64,000 nt of DNA from assembly GCA_964384035.1 (NCBI GenBank), contig CAYLIB010000001.1, positions 48,532 through 112,531 of the forward strand, given 5' to 3'. This document shows, piece by piece, positions 6,475 through 19,562 of the stretch. Numbering within the stretch: position 1 is the first letter of the stretch; every line of letters begins with the position of its first letter. The stretch is from an uncultured Candidatus Saccharibacteria bacterium. GTDB lineage: Bacteria; Patescibacteriota; Doudnabacteria; UBA920. The translations under genes were made by a program, and so were the position numbers. The notes below the pieces were generated by a model. It was not told the origin of the DNA, did not search any database, and saw only the letters and a list, made by a program, of their open reading frames with translations.

Positions 6475-7893
6475 ATGTTCCGAAAATTAAAAAACCCACC
6501 CCTGTTTAACAAGAATACATCTAATCAAGAAAATCAGTTTTCACATCTATATAAGGTAGTCACAGGACTAATCATAGTTCTTTATATAACATCAATCTTT
6601 TTTCCTATAAAGGTCAGTCTCAATACCTCTCAACAATTTATAACAGGTTATAAATCAGATTTTTTAATAATTTTCCTTTATTTAAGCGATATTTTATTAC
6701 TTTGTTTATTTTATTTTCTTGTATTACAAAAAAAATTACTCTCAAAAAAAATAGTATATTTATGGGGATTATTTATTTTTTCCTCTTTATTAAGCATTTT
6801 TTATAAGGGACTTAATAATCTCGCCATTCCTATATACTATCTTGCTCTAATATCTTCAGGTTTTGTTACATATGAAACTGTACGCATTATCTTTAATAAT
6901 ATTCAGCTTAAAAAAATATTCATTAGTACATTTCTAATTCTCTCAGTTACTCAGTCATTGTTAGTAATATATCAGTGGAATAAACAACAATCATTTGGAT
7001 TATTTCACGTGGGAGAATCAAATATATCACGTGAAACAGCAGGAGTTGCCAAAATCGACACTCCACGTGGAAAACTAATACGTCCTTACGGCACTTTTCC
7101 GCACCCAAATATCCTTTCTGTATTTTTATTAACTGCATGGTTTATAGGATTTACCCTACTAAAACCCAATAAACATTTGATATATCCTCATATTTACGGG
7201 ATATTAACTACATTTTGCTTACTTCTAACATTTAGCCGATCCACCATCATAATTTGGACCATAAGCCTAATAGCGTTACTCCTATATAACATAATTAAGA
7301 AGCTTCACAGGAAACATCTATACTATCTAATAACTAGTTTAGTGACTTTATGTCTATTCATTACTATAAATTCACAATATCTATTAAATAGATATAACAG
7401 TGCATATACAGATGGGTCTTTAAATCTTCGTAATGCCTACAACCTATTCGCATATAAGTTTATCCAAAATTCTCCTATTTTTGGCATAGGGCCGGGACAA
7501 ACAATGTTTCAAATGAAACAAAACAACTATCTCAGCTTAAAAACATACGAAATTCAACCAATTCACAACTTCCCCCTACTTATATGGACAGAATTCGGGA
7601 TTATACCCCTTCTCATAATTTTATTTATAGCATTCCTCACTATAATGAATCTTTGGAAATCTTTTTATACAGCATTAAAAGATGATGAGAATAAATCTGA
7701 ATTATTCTTTTTAATGGTCTATATTTTCTCAATTCTTGCATTATCCCTTACAGACCACTACTTCTACACTTCTAGACAAGGAATATTGATTTTTTGGGGT
7801 ACCATCGGAGTGTCTTATTCAATACTTCTAAAACTCAACAAAAAAGATGTTTCAGATGAAACATCAATTTACGAGCCCCCTAGTAATAATTGA
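6475..7893 (+). CDS. polytopic membrane protein, O-antigen ligase / Wzy_C-like
   Basis: At least 10 hydrophobic helices. The large loop carries 'RPYGTFPHPN', which resembles the R..G.F.NPN motif of the O-antigen ligase family. Confidence 0.55.
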   Translation: MFRKLKNPPLFNKNTSNQENQFSHLYKVVTGLIIVLYITSIFFPIKVSLNTSQQFITGYKSDFLIIFLYLSDILLLCLFYFLVLQKKLLSKKIVYLWGLFIFSSLLSIFYKGLNNLAIPIYYLALISSGFVTYETVRIIFNNIQLKKIFISTFLILSVTQSLLVIYQWNKQQSFGLFHVGESNISRETAGVAKIDTPRGKLIRPYGTFPHPNILSVFLLTAWFIGFTLLKPNKHLIYPHIYGILTTFCLLLTFSRSTIIIWTISLIALLLYNIIKKLHRKHLYYLITSLVTLCLFITINSQYLLNRYNSAYTDGSLNLRNAYNLFAYKFIQNSPIFGIGPGQTMFQMKQNNYLSLKTYEIQPIHNFPLLIWTEFGIIPLLIILFIAFLTIMNLWKSFYTALKDDENKSELFFLMVYIFSILALSLTDHYFYTSRQGILIFWGTIGVSYSILLKLNKKDVSDETSIYEPPSNN

Positions 7894-15115: not shown

Positions 15116-15189
15116 TGGAGCGGCTAACGGGAATCGAACCCGTGTCCCTTCCTTGGCAAGGAAGAGTTCTACCATTGAACCATAGCCGC
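15116..15189 (-). tRNA. tRNA-Gly(GCC)
   Basis: Minus-strand fold. Acceptor GCGGCTA/TAGCCGC, anticodon loop TTGCCAA, T-arm ACGGGTTCGATTCCCGT, CCA encoded. Confidence 0.8.
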
Positions 15190-15216
15190 ACAATCTAAAA
15201 CTTATTTTACTACATC

Positions 15217-15353
15217 ATTCACGAGCGAAGCAATGTGAATGCGCCAACCAAAAGTAGCTCGCTACTTTTGAAAGGGACAACAAGGTAAACGAAGTGTAGT
15301 CTTTATGGAGCGAAAGCGTAATAAAGACGTAACGCAGTGAGCCTTGGTTGGCC
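15217..15353 (+). repeat. R2 tRNA-cluster spacer repeat, unit 1
   Basis: ATTCAC-gagcgaagcaat-GTGAAT hairpin, then a second hairpin (caaaagtagc/gctacttttg), then the core 'gaaagggacaacaagg..aacgaagtgtagtctttatggagcgaaagcgtaataaagacgtaacg.agtgagccttggttggcc'. Confidence 0.7.
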
Positions 15354-15358
15354 TGTGG

Positions 15359-15433
15359 TGGTGCCTCGGCTCAGAATCGAACTGAGTACGCAAGCCTCTT
15401 CAGGGCTTCGCTCTACCAATGAGCTACCGAGGC
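15359..15433 (-). tRNA. tRNA-Phe(GAA)
   Basis: Acceptor GCCTCGG/CCGAGGC, anticodon loop CTGAAGA, CCA encoded. Confidence 0.8.
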
Positions 15434-15473
15434 GCTTCTATATTCACGAGCGCAGCAATGTGAACCATTTATC

Positions 15474-15549
15474 TGGTGGACGCTACAGGACTCGAACCTG
15501 TGACATCTTCGGTGTAAACGAAGCGCTCTACCAACTGAGCTAAGCGTCC
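15474..15549 (-). tRNA. tRNA-Val(UAC)
   Basis: Acceptor GGACGCT/AGCGTCC, anticodon loop TTTACAC, CCA encoded. A truncated R2 hairpin at 15442-15472 sits just 3' of it. Confidence 0.8.
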
Positions 15550-15575
15550 ATACATATATTATAACTGAGACTATG

Positions 15576-15716
15576 ATTCACGAGCGCAGCAATGTGAATG
15601 TTTTTTGGGTCCCCGGCCACTCGTGGCTGGGGAGAGGGACAACAAGGTGAACGTAGTGTAAGGTTTATGAAGCGTAAGCGCAATAAAGACGTAACGTAGT
15701 GAAGAAAACTAGACCT
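15576..15716 (+). repeat. R2 spacer repeat, unit 2 (divergent)
   Basis: Same ATTCAC...GTGAAT hairpin. The second hairpin is replaced by ccccggccactcgtggctgggg. The core 'gagagggacaacaaggtgaacgtagtgta...aataaagacgtaacgtagtga' is retained. Confidence 0.65.
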
Positions 15717-15718
15717 TT

Positions 15719-15855
15719 ATTCACGAGCGAAGCAATGTGAATGCGCTAACCAAATGTAACTGGTTACATTTGAAAGGGACAACAAGGAGAACGAAGTGTA
15801 GTCTTTATGGAGCGAAAGCGTAATAAAGACGTAACGTAGTGAGCCTTGATTGGCC
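15719..15855 (+). repeat. R2 spacer repeat, unit 3
   Basis: About 90% identical to unit 1. Its second hairpin (caaatgtaac/gttacatttg) has compensatory changes relative to unit 1. Confidence 0.7.
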
Positions 15856-15857
15856 CG

Positions 15858-15942
15858 TGGTGCCCGAGGAGGGACTCGAACCCTCAAGCCTTACGGCATA
15901 CGCACCTCAAGCGTACGCGTATACCAATTCCGCCACCCGGGC
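15858..15942 (-). tRNA. tRNA-Leu(GAG), type II
   Basis: Acceptor GCCCGGG/CTCGGGC, anticodon loop TTGAGGT, long variable arm, CCA encoded. Confidence 0.75.
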
Positions 15943-17290: not shown

Positions 17291-17441
17291 TTAATTTCCT
17301 CCCGAAAAATTATGTTAAAGACTATAATAATAGATAACTAACGAATACTAATAAAATTATTTCTATATGTAAAGTGGAAAACCCCCACCGTTGATTTTTA
17401 CCCAAACTTAAAGTAAAATTGAGTAACGAAATCTCCCCTAA

Positions 17442-17545
17442 GTCGACTCATAAGAGTCGCATCCCCTAGCAGCAACTGCTGCGAGACAGGGGAGGCTCCA
17501 TAAGGGCTTTGCCCGTTGGAGGGGACGACGCTAGTCCCTATAGTA
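17442..17545 (+). repeat. 5' module of three hairpins immediately upstream of tRNA-Cys; homologous to 25062-25143
   Basis: gcagcaactgctgc, gggctttgccc and gggacgacgctagtccc correspond to gcggcaaagccgc, ggctctgcc and ggggcgacgcaagcccc at 25062-25143. The changes are compensatory. Both copies end '...cttagta(g)'. Confidence 0.6.
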
Positions 17546-17620
17546 GGTGCGTTGGCGAAGTGGTAACGCTGCGGTCTGCAAAACCGCCATGCGTGGGTTC
17601 GAATCCCACACGCACCTCCA
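17546..17620 (+). tRNA. tRNA-Cys(GCA)
   Basis: Acceptor GGTGCGT/ACGCACC, anticodon loop CTGCAAA, discriminator U73, CCA encoded. Confidence 0.8.
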
Positions 17621-17640
17621 TGAGACCCCTGAGATTCTCA

Positions 17641-17805
17641 GGGCTCCCAAATTACTTGCTTACCTATGAGTTTGTTTGAAAAAACCCGAAGAGGGATTTT
17701 TCAAAAAACAAAGAAAGAAGCAATTTGGGACAAGGAGAACTTGACGGAGAGTGCAGCTGTTAGTTCTGCACCGAACTGACAGCGGAGCTCGTAGACAAGT
17801 TGGAC
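17641..17805 (+). repeat. R1 structured repeat, copy B, between tRNA-Cys and tRNA-Leu
   Basis: 'gggctcccaaattacttg', a GAAGA-loop hairpin (gaaaaaaccc/gggatttttc), 'aaagaagcaatttggga' pairing back to the 5' end, 'ggagagtgcag', an AGTT/AACT hairpin, then 'cggagctcg...ggac'. Confidence 0.65.
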
Positions 17806-17807
17806 GC

Positions 17808-17894
17808 GCCCAGGTGGCGGAACTGGTATACGCTACGGACTTAAAATCCGTCGCCCGCAAGGGATTGAGGGTTCGATTCCCTCCCTGGGCACCA
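17808..17894 (+). tRNA. tRNA-Leu(UAA), type II
   Basis: Acceptor GCCCAGG/CCTGGGC, anticodon loop CTTAAAA, long variable arm, T-arm GAGGGTTCGATTCCCTC, CCA encoded. Confidence 0.8.
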
Positions 17895-18283
17895 CTAAAA
17901 ACACGTTGATAAAGTTAGCGTGTTTTTTAGTTAGTACATTTTCAAAACAAGGGAATCGAACCTTCGCGTTAGCGAAAACTTTAGGGAGTGAACCCATGCT
18001 CTGCTGGGTGAACACATCTGGGCTGGTTCACCAGATCCAGATTTAATAGCCAACCCTCCCTGGGCACCACAAAAAACATGCTAATTAAGTTAGCGTGTTT
18101 TTTTGTTTAAATAAGAATAGGCAAATTGGGGAATCGAACCTGAGCGAAGCGAAATCTTTAGGGAGTTTGAATCCAGCTTTGCTGGTTCAAACGTTCGGCG
18201 CAAGCCTGCGAAGTCGCCGATATATAGCCATCCCTCCCTGGGCACCACAAAAAACACGTTCTATATATGAACGTGTTTTTTAG
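17895..18283 (+). repeat. tandem array of two extra copies of the tRNA-Leu 3' end, each followed by a terminator hairpin and a ~160-nt paralogous spacer
   Basis: 'ccctccctgggcacca' occurs at 17879-17894 inside the tRNA and again at 18054-18069 and 18232-18247. Terminator hairpins at 17897-17927, 18071-18105 and 18249-18281 differ in their loops. The spacers begin 'gggaatcgaacc', an inverted T-arm. Confidence 0.65.
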
Positions 18284-18527
18284 TAATATGATGTACCCGG
18301 AGAAAACCTTAATTACATCATCATAAAACAGGTGAAAAATGGTTTAACCGGCGGAACCCAAAACGCGCGTCTTGAATTCCATATAAAACCTTCTTCCCGA
18401 ATACAAGGTGGAAGTTGGGACCATGGTAAGTCAGGCAAAGGGACAACCCAGCCAATCGATTAGCAGACAACCCAAACAAGGTCGTTTTTTATTTGGCAAC
18501 AACTGCATATACGTTTAAACTAAACTT

Positions 18528-19562
18528 ATGCAAAACAAGTTAAAAATAGCCATTCTTTACGGTGGCAAATCCGCAGAACATGAAGTCTCAATTAGATCAG
18601 CCGAAAGCATAATTTCTGCTCTCGATAAAGAAAAATATGAAATTGTTAAAATTTTCATTTCCCCTAAGGGTAAATGGCAACTAGAAAACAGCTCAAAAAA
18701 CATCCTTCTAGCCCCAGAATCGAATGGCGAACTAACAATAAACGGAGAAATCTCATCAGATAAAATCGATGTAGTGTTTCCAGTTCTACATGGCCCATTC
18801 GGTGAAGACGGCACTGTTCAAGGGCTCCTTAAGCTAGCCGGAATACCTTTTGTAGGACCAAGTGTTCTAGGTTCGAGTATAGGTATGGACAAAGATGTTA
18901 CCAAAAGATTACTTAGAGAAGCTGGAATTCCTATACCAAACTTCATAACAACCACACACTCTAAATTACCTAGTTATGCTATAGCCAAAGAAACACTTGG
19001 TAATATCATATTTATAAAACCAGCTAACCTAGGTTCTTCTGTGGGTGTTCATAAAATAACCAACGAACAAGAGTACCAATCTGCAACGTTAGATGCTTTC
19101 TCCTACGACACAAAAATATTACTTGAAGAATTCATAGAAGGCAGAGAAATTGAATGCTCTGTTTTAGGAAACGAAGATCCCATAACTTCCCTACCTGGTG
19201 AAATTATCCCGACTCACGACTTTTATTCATACGAGTCAAAATACACCGATCAAAATGGAGCTAAGTATGAAATTCCTGCCAATTTAGACGAACTTATGAC
19301 TAAAAAAATTCAGGATTTAAGTATAAAAACCTTTAAAACACTCTGTTGTGAAGGAATGTCACGAGTAGATTTCTTTTTAAAAGCCAATGGAGAAATATTT
19401 GTTAACGAGATTAACACCATTCCAGGTTTCACCTCTATTAGTATGTACCCAAAAATGTGGGAAGCTAGCGGTCTACCATATAGCAAACTACTAGATAAAC
19501 TTATAGATCTTGCGATAAAAAGACACCAAGTGGAACAAAAGCTCCTAACAAATAGAGCATAA
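18528..19562 (+). CDS. ddl: D-alanine--D-alanine ligase
   Basis: 'KIAILYGGKSAEHEVSIRSAESII' N-terminus and an ATP-grasp core. Confidence 0.85.
   Translation: MQNKLKIAILYGGKSAEHEVSIRSAESIISALDKEKYEIVKIFISPKGKWQLENSSKNILLAPESNGELTINGEISSDKIDVVFPVLHGPFGEDGTVQGLLKLAGIPFVGPSVLGSSIGMDKDVTKRLLREAGIPIPNFITTTHSKLPSYAIAKETLGNIIFIKPANLGSSVGVHKITNEQEYQSATLDAFSYDTKILLEEFIEGREIECSVLGNEDPITSLPGEIIPTHDFYSYESKYTDQNGAKYEIPANLDELMTKKIQDLSIKTFKTLCCEGMSRVDFFLKANGEIFVNEINTIPGFTSISMYPKMWEASGLPYSKLLDKLIDLAIKRHQVEQKLLTNRA

What the first reader, a model, noticed from the sequence alone, without database searches (positions are those of the whole stretch)
17879..18283. Triplicated tRNA-Leu(UAA) 3' end, each copy followed by its own terminator and a paralogous ~160-nt spacer
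The 16-nt 3' end of tRNA-Leu, 'ccctccctgggcacca', recurs twice downstream. Every copy is followed by a strong hairpin and T-tract whose loops differ but whose stems are conserved (aaacacg…cgtgttt). The two intervening spacers are about 60% identical to each other. Both begin with 'gggaatcgaacc', the reverse complement of the tRNA T-arm. Tandem tRNA 3'-end repeats are the classic scars of serial integration and excision at a tRNA attB. Alternatively this is an array of tRNA-fragment decoys.
Basis: partly seen in the sequence, partly recalled or inferred. Interest (0 to 1): 0.6.

Follow-up and report, generated by a model that had tools for sequence, protein, structure and literature searches.

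The report
tRNA-linked repeat array after tRNA-Leu
Two paralogous ~175-nt non-coding units sit behind a tRNA-Leu gene of an uncultured Patescibacteria bacterium; each ends in a copy of the tRNA's last 16 bases plus a terminator, which is the same design as the long-known but functionally unexplained "tRNA-linked repeats" of E. coli and shows none of the expected marks of phage or island integration scars.

Summary
tRNA-Leu(UAA) lies at 17808-17894. Its last 16 nt recur exactly at 18054-18069 and 18232-18247, and each copy is followed by a strong A-tract/hairpin/T-tract terminator. The two ~160-nt spacers are paralogous, with 63% identical interiors. Each carries GGGAATCGAACC, the exact reverse complement of the tRNA T-arm.

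The integration-scar reading is not supported:
- No integrase or mobile-element genes lie nearby.
- The units have no phage or plasmid match.
- The copies lack a T-loop core.
- Sister contigs differ only by whole units. A strain with 99% identical Ddl has one unit.
- A relative with 91% identical Ddl has one X2-like unit whose 3' end matches its own, different, tRNA 3' end.

The architecture matches E. coli tRNA-linked repeats (TLR/RtT; 178-bp tyrT units; rrnB T1-rrB-T2). It fails the Rfam RtT model, so it is an analogue by design and not a sequence relative.

I found the same design downstream of Leu, Phe and Gly tRNAs: in Saccharibacteria, Oligoflexus and Pseudomonadota-labelled genome assemblies, and in many unclassified metagenome contigs. 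It has an inverted copy of the cognate tRNA 3' region, structured hairpins, then a direct 3' copy. The inverted part tracks the cognate T-arm.

The most likely mechanism, which is inferred, is transcription by terminator read-through, tRNA-type 3' processing, and copy-number change by unequal recombination. Function is unknown.

The parts
17546..17620 (+). tRNA-Cys(GCA), first gene of the Cys-Leu tRNA operon
   Evidence: ARAGORN; Rfam tRNA, 67 bits.
17808..17894 (+). tRNA-Leu(UAA) with encoded CCA. The T-arm is GAGGGTTCGATTCCCTC at 17867-17883. The 3' end CCCTCCCTGGGCACCA is at 17879-17894.
   Evidence: ARAGORN; Rfam tRNA, 60 bits.
17897..17928 (+). Terminator T0 (AAAAACACGTT...AGCGTGTTTTTT), bidirectional in form
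   Evidence: Inverted repeats; fold -13.4 kcal/mol, z -5.3.
17950..17965 (+). Unit X1 anti-T box AGGGAATCGAACCTTC. It is the reverse complement of tRNA T-arm 17867-17882; the single mismatch is G:T, which would be a G-U pair in sense RNA.
   Evidence: Inverted repeat I4, 16 nt, 94% complementary; 13-nt exact match against a shuffle maximum of 8.
17963..18042 (+). X1 interior. Hairpin 1 is 17963-17976 (TTCGC GTTA GCGAA). TTTAGGGAG at 17980-17988 can pair with CTCCCTGGG at the 3' end. Hairpin 2 is 17992-18009 and hairpin 3 is 18016-18042.
   Evidence: Fold of X1: -39.7 kcal/mol, z -2.25; pair counts on alignment A2.
18054..18069 (+). X1 direct copy of the tRNA-Leu 3' end (16 nt, including ACCA)
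   Evidence: Exact match.
18071..18103 (+). Terminator T1
   Evidence: Fold -14.9 kcal/mol, z -6.1.
18128..18140 (+). Unit X2 anti-T box GGGGAATCGAACC
   Evidence: 12-nt exact reverse complement of the T-arm.
18141..18220 (+). X2 interior. GCGAAGC mini-hairpin at 18144-18150. TTTAGGGAG at 18157-18165. Hairpin 2 at 18166-18191. Hairpin 3 at 18195-18220.
   Evidence: Folds. Three compensatory base-pair changes in hairpin 2 against the L218 orthologue. GCGAAGC motif count.
18231..18247 (+). X2 direct copy of the tRNA-Leu 3' end (17 nt)
18249..18281 (+). Terminator T2 (perfect 13-bp stem), last of the array
   Evidence: Inverted repeat I6; fold -15.3 kcal/mol, z -6.1.
18294..18470 (+). 3' remnant of a small ORF. 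It is intact in relative L218 and absent in sister L217. It marks deletion activity at the array's edge and is not part of the units.
   Evidence: Comparison.
18528..19562 (+). ddl (D-Ala-D-Ala ligase), the first gene downstream in the same orientation
   Evidence: Pfam families; homologues named Patescibacteria Ddl.

Best explanation
This is an array of two tRNA-linked repeat (TLR) units, X1 and X2, embedded at the 3' end of a tRNA-Cys/tRNA-Leu(UAA) operon of a Patescibacteria (CPR) bacterium. It is an analogue of the E. coli TLR/RtT repeats (the 178-bp tyrT units, and rrA/B/F between rrn T1 and T2).

Each unit consists of:
- a terminator hairpin;
- a short linker;
- an inverted copy of the tRNA's T-arm;
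- two or three hairpins;
- a direct copy of the tRNA's last 16-17 nt, including ACCA.

Shown here:
- the anatomy;
- paralogy of the units;
- conserved hairpins with compensatory changes;
- whole-unit copy-number differences between close relatives;
- a relative's unit whose 3' copy matches that relative's own, different, tRNA 3' end;
- absence of mobile-element signatures;
- the same design behind other tRNAs in other phyla.

Inferred:
- The units are transcribed on the tRNA strand when RNA polymerase reads through the preceding terminator.
- The tRNA-identical 3' end lets the tRNA 3'-processing machinery trim each unit to a defined ...ACCA end, releasing small RNAs of roughly 120-175 nt, as reported for the E. 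coli units.
- The array grows and shrinks by unequal recombination or slippage between the ~61-nt '3' end + terminator' repeats. That process would also keep the copies identical to the tRNA.
- As a side effect the array gives three successive terminators between a strong tRNA promoter and ddl.

The cellular role of the released RNA is unknown. The same is true of most E. coli TLRs.
For: Anatomy.

E. coli comparison:
- The tyrT/tyrV units are 175-178 nt. They end in 19 nt of tRNA-Tyr and carry GAACCTTCGA/GGGGAAGG, the reverse complement of the tRNA-Tyr 3' region.
- The Rfam RtT consensus has an outer helix made from the 3' copy and its upstream complement, with a 9-nt 3' tail.
- PMC8144298 gives the TLR hallmark (18-19 bp of the upstream tRNA/rRNA 3' end). 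It counts 22 TLRs at 10 loci. It describes rrA/B/F lying between dual terminators, being transcribed by read-through of T1, and being processed.
- RtT RNAs have been detected in Pasteurellaceae (PMC4986893).

Sister genomes:
- L217 (Ddl 99% identical) has the tRNA end, T, X1, T, then ddl, so one unit only.
- L218 (Ddl 91% identical) has one X2-like unit ending in CCCTCCTCGGGCACCA, identical to its own tRNA 3' end. Hairpin 2 is kept through three compensatory pairs.

No mobile element.

Same design elsewhere:
- 23 tRNA-plus-unit loci in metagenomes.
- L023 and L029, behind tRNA-Phe.
- Saccharibacteria L007 and L056, behind tRNA-Gly, with 13-18-nt inverted copies and at least 2 units in L056.

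The inverted segment tracks the cognate T-arm. The mean longest match is 9.6 nt for cognate pairs against 6.2 nt for non-cognate pairs, and 0 of 2000 permutations reach the observed sum. It sits about 55-60 nt after the CCA in most units.

Sense-strand RNA hints: GCGAAGC/GCGAAAGC mini-hairpins occur 8 times on the sense strand, 0 times on the antisense strand, with 0.41 expected. The mismatches in the window's anti-T boxes are G:T, i.e. G-U on the sense strand.
Against: - There are no expression data, so transcription, read-through and processing are all inferred.
- All three terminators are strong, so read-through could be rare.
- No promoter-like site lies inside the array.
- Fold stability of the isolated units is weak (X1 z -2.25; X2 z -0.10).
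- The candidate closing helix TTTAGGGAG/CTCCCTGGG is lost in the L218 orthologue, where it reads TTTAGAAAG.
- The anti-T box of L218 has two mismatches to its own tRNA. At short evolutionary range, therefore, the inverted copy does not track the tRNA as the 3' copy does.
- The covariation rests on only three effectively distinct sequences.
- The units fail Rfam RtT. Kinship with E. coli TLRs is by architecture only and could be convergent.
- The metagenome loci include related contigs, so the permutation test overstates independence.
Confidence: 0.65

Rival explanations
1. The array is functionally just DNA. It would be a stack of fail-safe terminators, or neutral debris, produced by slippage and unequal crossing-over between '3' end + terminator' modules and by palindrome extension or correction around the terminator hairpin. 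Under this reading the inverted T-arm copy and the direct 3' copy are by-products of template switching and gene conversion, and no released RNA has a role.
For: - Three strong terminators sit between a tRNA promoter and ddl.
- Whole-unit gain and loss occurs between close relatives, and the L217 deletion junction lies in T-runs.
- The inverted copy lies roughly mirror-symmetric to the tRNA 3' region. The palindrome centre is about 19-26 nt after the CCA in most families and is often occupied by a terminator.
- The fold z-scores of isolated units are weak.
- The putative closing helix is lost in L218.
Against: - Hairpin 2 is kept by three compensatory changes between X2 and the L218 unit, although a DNA palindrome would also show this.
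- GNRA-type mini-hairpins are strand-specific across unit families: 8 sense against 0 antisense.
- The E. coli and Pasteurellaceae counterparts are detectably expressed, and rrA/B/F bind Hfq and CsrA.
- Unit length and layout are conserved across phyla.
Confidence: 0.2
2. X1 and X2 would be the decayed remains of two related integrative elements (phage, satellite or island) that inserted serially into the 3' end of tRNA-Leu, each bringing its own copy of the tRNA 3' end.
For: - Direct repeats of a tRNA 3' end are the classical signature of integrase-mediated insertion.
- A 16-17-nt identity block is within the range of 3'-end-type attachment cores.
- One fetched locus, L042, shows the classical picture, with a copy 1117 nt downstream.
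Against: - The units are only ~160 nt and have no phage or plasmid similarity.
- No integrase or element genes lie nearby.
- The viral-contig hits to the array pattern are coding repeats.
- All three copies are followed by homologous terminators, which serial insertion does not predict.
- The two 'elements' have the same length and layout as each other and as units in other phyla and in E. coli.
- The relatives found hold neither an empty site nor a resident element.
- The inverted T-arm copy is unexplained.
Confidence: 0.05
3. X1 and X2 are degenerate tandem duplicates of the tRNA-Leu gene, that is pseudogenes, of which only the 3' end has stayed recognisable.
For: - Tandem tRNA genes with ~170-190-nt periods are common. 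About 40 of the 120 metagenome hits are plain tandem tRNA-Leu genes.
- Some TLR-like units elsewhere keep a whole direct T-arm (L151, L208, L162).
Against: - There is no tRNA-model or ARAGORN signal in X1 or X2 on either strand, even at E up to 10.
- The interior does not align to the tRNA.
- The T-arm copy is inverted, not direct.
- The units are about twice the tRNA's length.
- The interior hairpins are conserved between X2 and its orthologue.
Confidence: 0.07
4. The functional transcripts come from the minus strand. They would be RNAs starting with UGGUGCCCAGGGAGGG, a perfect 16-nt antisense to the tRNA-Leu 3' end, ending near a sense T-arm copy, and bounded by the same bidirectional terminators.
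For: The terminators are symmetric, with an A-tract and a T-tract. Some units elsewhere start with a full TGGTGCCCAGG on the sense strand, which shows that tRNA-3'-end complementarity is a recurrent theme (L169).
Against: - No promoter-like site on the minus strand lies within or just downstream of the array; the two minus-strand sites found (17373-17345 and 18680-18651) lie upstream of it or inside ddl.
- The minus-strand folds are no better than shuffles (z -0.57 and 0.16).
- GNRA-type mini-hairpins and G:T mismatches favour the sense strand.
- The E. coli TLR RNAs are sense.
Confidence: 0.03

Closest known systems
E. coli tRNA-linked repeats (TLRs), in particular the 178-bp tyrT/tyrV repeats that encode rtT RNA (rttR; Rfam RtT RF00391)
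   Same: - They lie directly 3' of a tRNA gene on the same strand.
- Units of 175-178 nt occur in tandem.
- Each unit ends in an exact copy of the tRNA's 3' end, including CCA (19 nt in E. coli, 16-17 nt here).
- Each unit carries an upstream reverse complement of the same tRNA's 3' region.
- The interior has short GC-rich hairpins, including GCGAAGC.
- The function is unknown.

   Different: - There is no detectable sequence or covariance-model similarity: no RtT hit at E up to 10.
- In E. coli the inverted copy reaches into the acceptor strand and forms the 8-9-bp outer helix of RtT. Here only the T-arm part is kept, giving a 4-6-bp AGGG(A)/(T)CCCT helix, and a second candidate partner, TTTAGGGAG, exists.
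- Here every unit has its own intrinsic terminator, which the tyrT units lack.
- The host is a CPR bacterium, not a gammaproteobacterium.
E. coli rrA/rrB/rrF, the TLR members that lie between the dual terminators T1 and T2 of rrnA/B/D (PMC8144298)
   Same: The unit is sandwiched between two intrinsic terminators. [quoted passage not shown]
   Different: The upstream gene there is 5S rRNA, not a tRNA. Hfq and CsrA binding and GGA motifs were shown there and nothing comparable was tested here. CsrA and Hfq may not even exist in this lineage; I did not check.
tRNA 3' external transcribed spacer RNAs such as 3'ETS-leuZ of the E. coli glyW-cysT-leuZ operon
   Same: A functional or potentially functional RNA derived from the trailer of a Cys-Leu(UAA) tRNA operon. 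The gene order here, tRNA-Cys then tRNA-Leu(UAA), is the same (mentioned in PMC8144298).
   Different: As far as I know, 3'ETS-leuZ is a single short trailer acting as an sRNA sponge. It has no tRNA 3'-end copy and no tandem units. No target complementarity was examined here.
attL/attR direct repeats left by integrases that target tRNA genes
   Same: Direct repetition of the tRNA 3' end downstream of the gene.
   Different: There is no element, no integrase and no T-loop core. The spacing is a constant ~175 nt, the terminators are homologous, and there is an inverted T-arm copy.

Membership tests
tRNA-linked repeats (TLR) as defined for E. coli (PMC8144298, citing Egan & Landy 1978 and Rudd 1999) | Located in a tRNA or rRNA operon, immediately downstream of the stable-RNA gene, on the same strand | tested here: met
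   The units start 1 nt after tRNA-Leu(UAA) and lie on the + strand.
tRNA-linked repeats (TLR) as defined for E. coli (PMC8144298, citing Egan & Landy 1978 and Rudd 1999) | The 3' end of each unit is identical to the 3' end (18-19 bp) of the gene immediately upstream | tested here: met
   16 nt (X1) and 17 nt (X2) are identical, including ACCA. This is slightly shorter than in E. coli. In relative L218 the unit's 3' copy matches that relative's own, different, tRNA 3' end.
tRNA-linked repeats (TLR) as defined for E. coli (PMC8144298, citing Egan & Landy 1978 and Rudd 1999) | One to five units per locus, with a unit of about 170-180 bp | tested here: met
   There are two units of 175 and 178 nt. 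The E. coli tyrT units measured here are 175-178 nt.
tRNA-linked repeats (TLR) as defined for E. coli (PMC8144298, citing Egan & Landy 1978 and Rudd 1999) | Transcribed with the operon and processed to discrete RNAs | not testable with these tools
   No expression data are available. The only support is indirect strand-specific sequence evidence.
Rfam RtT (RF00391) | Covariance-model score at or above the gathering threshold (45 bits) | tested here: not met
   There is no RtT hit in 17300-18600 even at E up to 10, nor in the whole window at the gathering threshold. The E. coli controls score 133-137 bits.
Rfam RtT (RF00391) | An outer helix formed by the tRNA-3'-end copy and an upstream complement, leaving a ~9-nt single-stranded ...CCA tail (consensus structure) | tested here: inconclusive
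   Two candidates exist. The first is anti-T AGGG(A) with (T)CCCT, 4-6 bp, kept in all four sequences (helix 1, 90% of cells paired). The second is TTTAGGGAG with CTCCCTGGG, which appears in the X1 MFE but is lost in L218.
Integrase attachment-site scars / degraded integrative element at a tRNA gene | Integrase or other element genes, or their remnants, between or beside the repeats | tested here: not met
   ORF list. Pfam finds only DHH/DHHA1 and Lactamase_B domains in two neighbours; the other ORFs scanned, including the one inside the array, have no hit and no integrase domain. Ddl and S1 are identified.
Integrase attachment-site scars / degraded integrative element at a tRNA gene | Spacer sequence related to phages, plasmids or other mobile elements | tested here: not met
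   blastn with 11-nt words finds no match in 50,697 phage or 72,556 plasmid records. The viral-contig pattern hits are coding repeats.
Integrase attachment-site scars / degraded integrative element at a tRNA gene | Relatives show an empty site or a resident element | tested here: not met
   The two relatives whose contigs cover the site, L217 and L218, each have one ~175-nt unit. Neither shows an empty site or a resident element.
tRNA gene or pseudogene | A cloverleaf detectable by ARAGORN or the Rfam tRNA model | tested here: not met
   No call falls inside 17895-18283 on either strand.
T-box leader (considered because of the complementarity to a tRNA 3' end and the terminators upstream of ddl) | A match to the Rfam T-box model, with the leader in the correct orientation upstream of the regulated gene | tested here: not met
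   No T-box hit at E up to 10 on either strand. The sense strand carries the tRNA's own 3' sequence, not its complement.

The most novel reading that the evidence does not exclude
tRNA-linked repeats are not an enterobacterial curiosity. They would be a widespread class, including in CPR bacteria, of 'mirror modules', each carrying both an inverted and a direct copy of the 3' region of its own tRNA, with both copies co-evolving with that tRNA.

In a read-through transcript the two copies can re-pair with the tRNA body. For this window the predicted minimum-energy fold of tRNA-Leu + T0 + X1 has the anti-T box paired with the tRNA T-arm (16 bp) and the tRNA's 5' acceptor strand paired with X1's distal 3' copy. 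That would make the unit a cis-acting switch or quality-control device that decides the fate of tRNA transcripts which fail to terminate. Alternatively it could generate a tRNA-like minihelix RNA with a role of its own.
Probability: 0.15. Interest if true: 0.7.

Novelty: new member of a known kind. Interest (0 to 1): 0.4.

Why it matters
TLRs were first described in 1978. E. coli K-12 has 22 of them, and most have no known function. The literature I could reach places them only in Enterobacterales and Pasteurellaceae.

This window shows the same design in a Patescibacteria genome with a very small gene set, where non-functional DNA is usually scarce. The by-product survey shows it behind different tRNAs in three or four phyla. 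It also points to a second shared feature that the TLR description in PMC8144298, the one source I could read, does not mention: an inverted copy of the cognate T-arm at a roughly constant distance.

That gives comparative leverage on an old question, namely what TLRs are for and how they stay identical to their tRNA. It also warns annotators that short tandem copies of a tRNA 3' end are not by themselves evidence of past integration.

Tried and rejected
- Rfam, at the gathering threshold and at E up to 10 on both strands: only the two tRNAs, with no RtT, T-box, tmRNA or other family.
- Rfam RtT on 20 TLR-like loci: it hits only the E. coli controls. I therefore cannot claim that L121/L135/L214 belong to RtT, despite the shared motif GGATGAGAACC...GGTTCGAC that I saw by eye.
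- The promoter scan found no site inside the array. The terminator scan found none at all, for algorithmic reasons.
- Phage and plasmid blastn: nothing.
- The viral-contig scan with the array pattern returned only collagen-like and other coding repeats.
- About 40 of the 120 metagenome hits were ordinary tandem tRNA-Leu genes, and many 'no tRNA' hits were protein-coding repeats. Both groups were discarded.
- The Ddl-based route to relatives worked only for close ones. The 75% relative's contig has only 70 nt upstream of ddl, and the 70% relative has no tRNA next to ddl.
- The ungapped 'mirror' score around the terminator centre is only modestly above shuffles, and indels blur it.
- The excess of G:T over A:C mismatches flanking the anti-T seeds (22 against 9) comes partly from related loci, and most flanking positions are simply unpaired, so I treat it as weak.
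- The Bosl & Kersten 1991 paper could not be read.
- I considered and rejected a T-box leader, a permuted or split tRNA on the minus strand, and a coding role for the 62-aa ORF at 18095-18283. That ORF has no Pfam hit, and the units differ by indels.
Full report

Yes. ARAGORN and Rfam place tRNA-Cys(GCA) at 17546-17620 and tRNA-Leu(UAA) at 17808-17894, both on the + strand and both with encoded CCA. The last 16 nt of tRNA-Leu, CCCTCCCTGGGCACCA, recur exactly at 18054-18069 and 18232-18247. A 16-mer search allowing two mismatches expects 0.01 hits in the window. The repeat finder reports a 61-nt family (3' end plus hairpin) with spacings of 175 and 178 nt.

Each copy is followed by an A-tract, a hairpin and a T-tract:
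- T0, 17897-17928, -13.4 kcal/mol.
- T1, 18071-18103, -14.9 kcal/mol.
- T2, 18249-18281, -15.3 kcal/mol.

No shuffle folds as well as any of them. The simple terminator scan missed them because the A/U tracts are absorbed into the stems or the loop is too long.

The two units are 67% identical overall: 83% in the terminator, 63% in the interior and 100% in the 3' copy. GGGAATCGAACC at 17951-17962 and 18129-18140 is the exact reverse complement of T-arm bases 17870-17881. It lies 56-60 nt after the preceding CCA, not at the very start of the spacer.

The array is not an assembly artefact. The units differ from each other. The locus is identical in an independent JGI contig. X1 recurs with one substitution in a contig from another sample, and an X2 orthologue is in a third.

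**2. Host and surroundings**

The downstream gene is ddl. Its homologues carrying a taxon name are mostly annotated as Patescibacteria or CPR lineages (Paceibacterota, Saccharimonadales, Berkelbacteria, Uhrbacteria). The window has 39.5% G+C.

Pfam finds only DHH/DHHA1 and Lactamase_B domains in two neighbouring ORFs; the others scanned, including the 62-aa ORF inside the array, have no hit. Ddl and ribosomal protein S1 are identified from the precomputed families. No ORF has an integrase, transposase or other mobile-element domain.

Of the ten tRNA genes in the window, only tRNA-Leu(UAA) carries such units.

**3. Relatives**

Using Ddl homologues as handles, I fetched contigs of close relatives.

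- **L217** (Ddl 99% identical) reads: tRNA 3' end, T0, X1 (one substitution), 3' copy, terminator, ddl. X2 and the ~200 nt that follow it in the window are absent, and the junction lies in runs of T.
- **L218** (Ddl 91% identical) reads: tRNA 3' end, terminator, a single unit, terminator, an intact small ORF, ddl.
  - Its unit is the orthologue of X2, with about 82% identity.
  - The tRNA fragment in L218 ends ...GGTTCGAGTCCCTCCTCGGGCACCA. This differs from the window's tRNA-Leu(UAA). The unit ends in the same CCCTCCTCGGGCACCA, so its direct copy matches the tRNA next to it.
  - Hairpin 2 of the unit is kept through three double (compensatory) changes: TTTGAA/TTCAAA becomes CTTAAG/CTTAAG.
- On the four-sequence alignment, 80% of cells are paired, five pairs change on both sides, and the covariation score is 0.196 against at most 0.089 for slid controls. 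Only three sequences are effectively distinct, so this is modest support.
- Not everything is conserved. In L218, TTTAGGGAG has become TTTAGAAAG, and the anti-T box (GGGAATCAAACC) has two mismatches to its own tRNA.
- The relative with 75% identical Ddl has only 70 nt upstream of ddl, and the 70% relative has no tRNA next to ddl.

In short, relatives differ by whole units, and none of those whose contigs cover the site shows an empty site or a resident element.

**4. Test of the integration-scar idea**

- The 406-nt array has no blastn match (11-nt words) in 50,697 phage or 72,556 plasmid records.
- The array pattern finds only coding repeats in IMG/VR.
- The repeated block starts at the 3' strand of the T-stem. 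It therefore lacks the T-loop and the 5' T-stem that a T-loop-type attachment core would need.
- All three copies are followed by homologous terminators. Serial insertion of foreign elements does not predict this.
- The two 'elements' have the same size and layout.

A genuine scar-like case does exist among the fetched loci for comparison: L042 has a copy 1117 nt downstream.

**5. What it resembles**

E. coli has 'tRNA-linked repeats' (TLRs). PMC8144298 describes 22 sequences at ten loci in tRNA or rRNA operons, whose last 18-19 bp are identical to the 3' end of the gene immediately upstream. They were first seen as the 178-bp repeat behind tyrT and mostly have no known function. Three of them (rrA/B/F) lie between the dual terminators of rrn operons. 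These are transcribed by read-through of T1, processed, and bind Hfq and CsrA. RtT-family RNAs are also expressed in Pasteurellaceae (PMC4986893).

I fetched the tyrT/tyrV region and read it.
- The units are 175-178 nt and end in TCCTTCCCCCACCACCA.
- They contain GGGGAAGG...GAACCTTCGA, which is the reverse complement of the tRNA-Tyr 3' region with only the T-loop centre replaced.
- The Rfam RtT consensus pairs GGGGAAGG-A with T-CCTTCCCC as the outer helix and leaves a 9-nt ...CCACCA tail.

The window's units share these features:
- the position behind a tRNA gene;
- the orientation;
- the unit length;
- the exact 3' copy;
- an inverted copy of the tRNA 3' region;
- short GC-rich hairpins, including GCGAAGC;
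- the terminator-unit-terminator layout of rrnB.

They do not match the RtT covariance model at all. I therefore file them as TLRs by architecture, not as members of Rfam RtT.

**6. The same design elsewhere**

*Genome scan.* A scan of one genome per species for the tRNA's 25-nt 3' end gave 93 loci from many phyla.
- Only L023 (labelled Pseudomonadota) and L029 (Oligoflexus) had a nearby second copy. In both it follows a tRNA-Phe. It starts with GGGAATCGAAC about 24 nt after the CCA and ends in 22 nt of the tRNA.
- I then examined all 151 tRNAs called in those loci, which is unbiased with respect to the search pattern. This gave three TLR-like cases. Two were in Saccharibacteria (L007, L056), behind tRNA-Gly(GCC), and L056 has at least two units.
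- In both Saccharibacteria loci a terminator is followed by an inverted copy of the tRNA's 3' region, hairpins, a 3' copy of at least 14 nt, and another terminator. The inverted copy has a 13-nt (L007) or 16-nt (L056) exact match, and in L056 I read 18 nt of complementarity by eye.
- Their predicted folds close with a long helix between the inverted and direct copies.

- After removing tandem tRNA genes and coding repeats, 23 were a tRNA (Leu-CAG, Leu-GAG, Leu-UAA or Phe) followed by a non-tRNA unit. More arrays were recognisable by eye, such as L130 and L194 with two units each.
- In 20 of 27 tRNA/unit pairs, including E. coli and the window, the unit holds an exact reverse complement of at least 10 nt of the tRNA's 3'-terminal 32 nt, in nearly all cases of the T-arm. 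In shuffles the mean is 5-6 nt and the maximum 7-10 nt. The match usually starts 55-60 nt after the CCA.
- The inverted segment follows the T-arm sequence of its own tRNA. A TTCAAGT loop is paired with ACTTGAA, TTCGATT with AATCGAA, and the stem bases follow as well. Cognate matches average 9.6 nt against 6.2 nt for non-cognate ones, and none of 2000 permutations reaches the observed sum. Several loci are related to one another, so the test overstates independence. At least seven interior-unrelated unit families contribute, judged by eye.
- GCGAAGC/GCGAAAGC mini-hairpins occur eight times on the sense strand of 24 units and never on the antisense strand, with 0.41 expected. This hints that the sense RNA is what matters.
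- None of the 20 units I tested is recognised by Rfam RtT.

**7. How it most likely works**

*Shown:* the anatomy, the paralogy, the hairpin conservation, the whole-unit copy-number change, the L218 unit's 3' copy matching its own tRNA, and the lack of mobile-element marks.

*Inferred:*
- The units are transcribed from the tRNA promoter when polymerase reads through T0 and T1. No internal promoter-like site was found.
- The tRNA-identical 3' end is trimmed by the same enzymes that mature the tRNA, giving RNAs that end in ...ACCA.
- Unequal recombination or slippage between the 61-nt '3' end + terminator' repeats adds and removes units, and keeps the copies identical to the tRNA.
- Three successive terminators also insulate ddl, 281 nt downstream on the same strand, from tRNA transcription.

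*Closing helix.* The closing helix of the window's units is uncertain. AGGG(A)/(T)CCCT is present in all four sequences but is only 4-6 bp. TTTAGGGAG/CTCCCTGGG is stronger and appears in the X1 minimum-energy fold, but it is lost in L218.

*A speculative extension.* The predicted fold of the read-through transcript (tRNA + T0 + X1) pairs the anti-T box with the tRNA's T-arm over 16 bp. It also pairs the tRNA's 5' acceptor strand with X1's distal 3' copy (z -4.2 and -5.8). The unit could therefore act in cis on tRNA transcripts that fail to terminate. Co-transcriptional folding of the cloverleaf may well prevent this, and nothing here tests it.

*The purely DNA-level alternative.* Fail-safe terminators plus palindrome extension around the terminator hairpin remain a serious rival. 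The inverted copy is roughly mirror-symmetric to the tRNA 3' region, about a centre 19-26 nt after the CCA.

**8. Verdict**

This is a genuine, non-artefactual array of tRNA-linked repeats in a CPR bacterium. It is a new member of a known but poorly understood kind, not an integration scar.

The individual finding is of moderate interest. The broader pattern it led to is the part worth following up: TLR-like modules with cognate inverted and direct copies of the tRNA 3' region in several phyla, none of those tested recognised by Rfam's RtT model.

Noticed in passing
window 15116-15942, minus strand: The Leu(GAG)-Val-Phe-Gly tRNA operon contains its own repeated spacer module. Positions 15719-15862 and 15217-15360 are 92% identical, and a partial third copy lies at about 15577-15718. 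A hairpin, TTCACATTGCTKCGCTCGTGAA, occurs four times (15740-15719, 15598-15577, 15464-15443, 15239-15218). Three of the four copies lie 21-27 nt upstream of a tRNA gene (Val, Phe, Gly); the fourth (15740-15719) precedes another spacer module. These modules carry no copy of a tRNA 3' end.
   Followed up: partly
window 17645-17730: The 187-nt spacer between tRNA-Cys and tRNA-Leu can form a long hairpin (arms 17645-17657 and 17718-17730). It encloses a terminator-like hairpin at 17672-17708 (TTGTTTGAAAAAACCC/GGGATTTTTCAAAAAA).
   Followed up: no
window 18294-18470; L218 490-777; L217 230-250: The stretch between T2 and ddl is the 3' remnant of a small ORF of unknown function. The ORF is intact in the relative with 91% identical Ddl and entirely deleted, together with X2, in the strain with 99% identical Ddl. 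The edge of the array is therefore a deletion hotspot.
   Followed up: partly
L007 616-825; L056 (reverse strand) about 6877-7090 and onward: Saccharibacteria genomes carry TLR-like units behind tRNA-Gly(GCC). They have an inverted copy of the tRNA 3' region (13-nt exact match in L007, 16-nt in L056, about 18 nt complementary by eye in L056), a long predicted closing helix, and flanking terminators. L056 has at least two units in tandem.
   Followed up: partly
L023 5639-5827; L029 (reverse strand) about 1262-1451: tRNA-Phe(GAA) in an Oligoflexus MAG and a Pseudomonadota-labelled MAG is followed by a ~190-nt unit that starts GGGAATCGAACG and ends in 22 nt of the tRNA. L023 also shows the degenerate start of a second unit (GGGAAACGAACGCGGAC).
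   Followed up: partly
L105, L119, L158, L192, L194 (one family); L125, L142, L130, L155, L107 (another family): There are at least two multi-member families of TLR-like units in metagenomes, behind tRNA-Leu(CAG) and behind tRNA-Leu(UAA). In both, the anti-T segment pairs with an immediately following direct copy of the T-arm 5' half (for example GAACC...GGTTC), as in E. coli RtT. The four members tested (L105, L125, L142 at the gathering threshold; L105 and L125 also at E up to 1) are not recognised by Rfam RtT.
   Followed up: partly
window 18141-18155 and L099 unit: A 15-nt identity, TGAGCGAAGCGAAAT, is shared by window unit X2 and an otherwise unrelated unit behind a tRNA-Leu(GAG) with a different T-loop. 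E. coli units have the similar GAGCGAAAGCGAGA. This may be a shared GNRA-type mini-hairpin motif, or a trace of common ancestry of TLR families.
   Followed up: partly
L042 (reverse strand) about 1100-2360: A betaproteobacterial MAG shows the classical integration-type picture: a second copy of the tRNA-Leu 3' end 1117 nt downstream, preceded by a degenerate T-arm. It is useful as a contrast to the ~175-nt units.
   Followed up: no
L002, L217, L218 (Logan contigs): Three independent short-read assemblies break inside or at the edge of the array. L217 and L218 both start at TGAGGGTTCG in the tRNA T-arm, and L002 starts at window position 18201. Short-read MAGs will therefore systematically under-report such arrays.
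   Followed up: no
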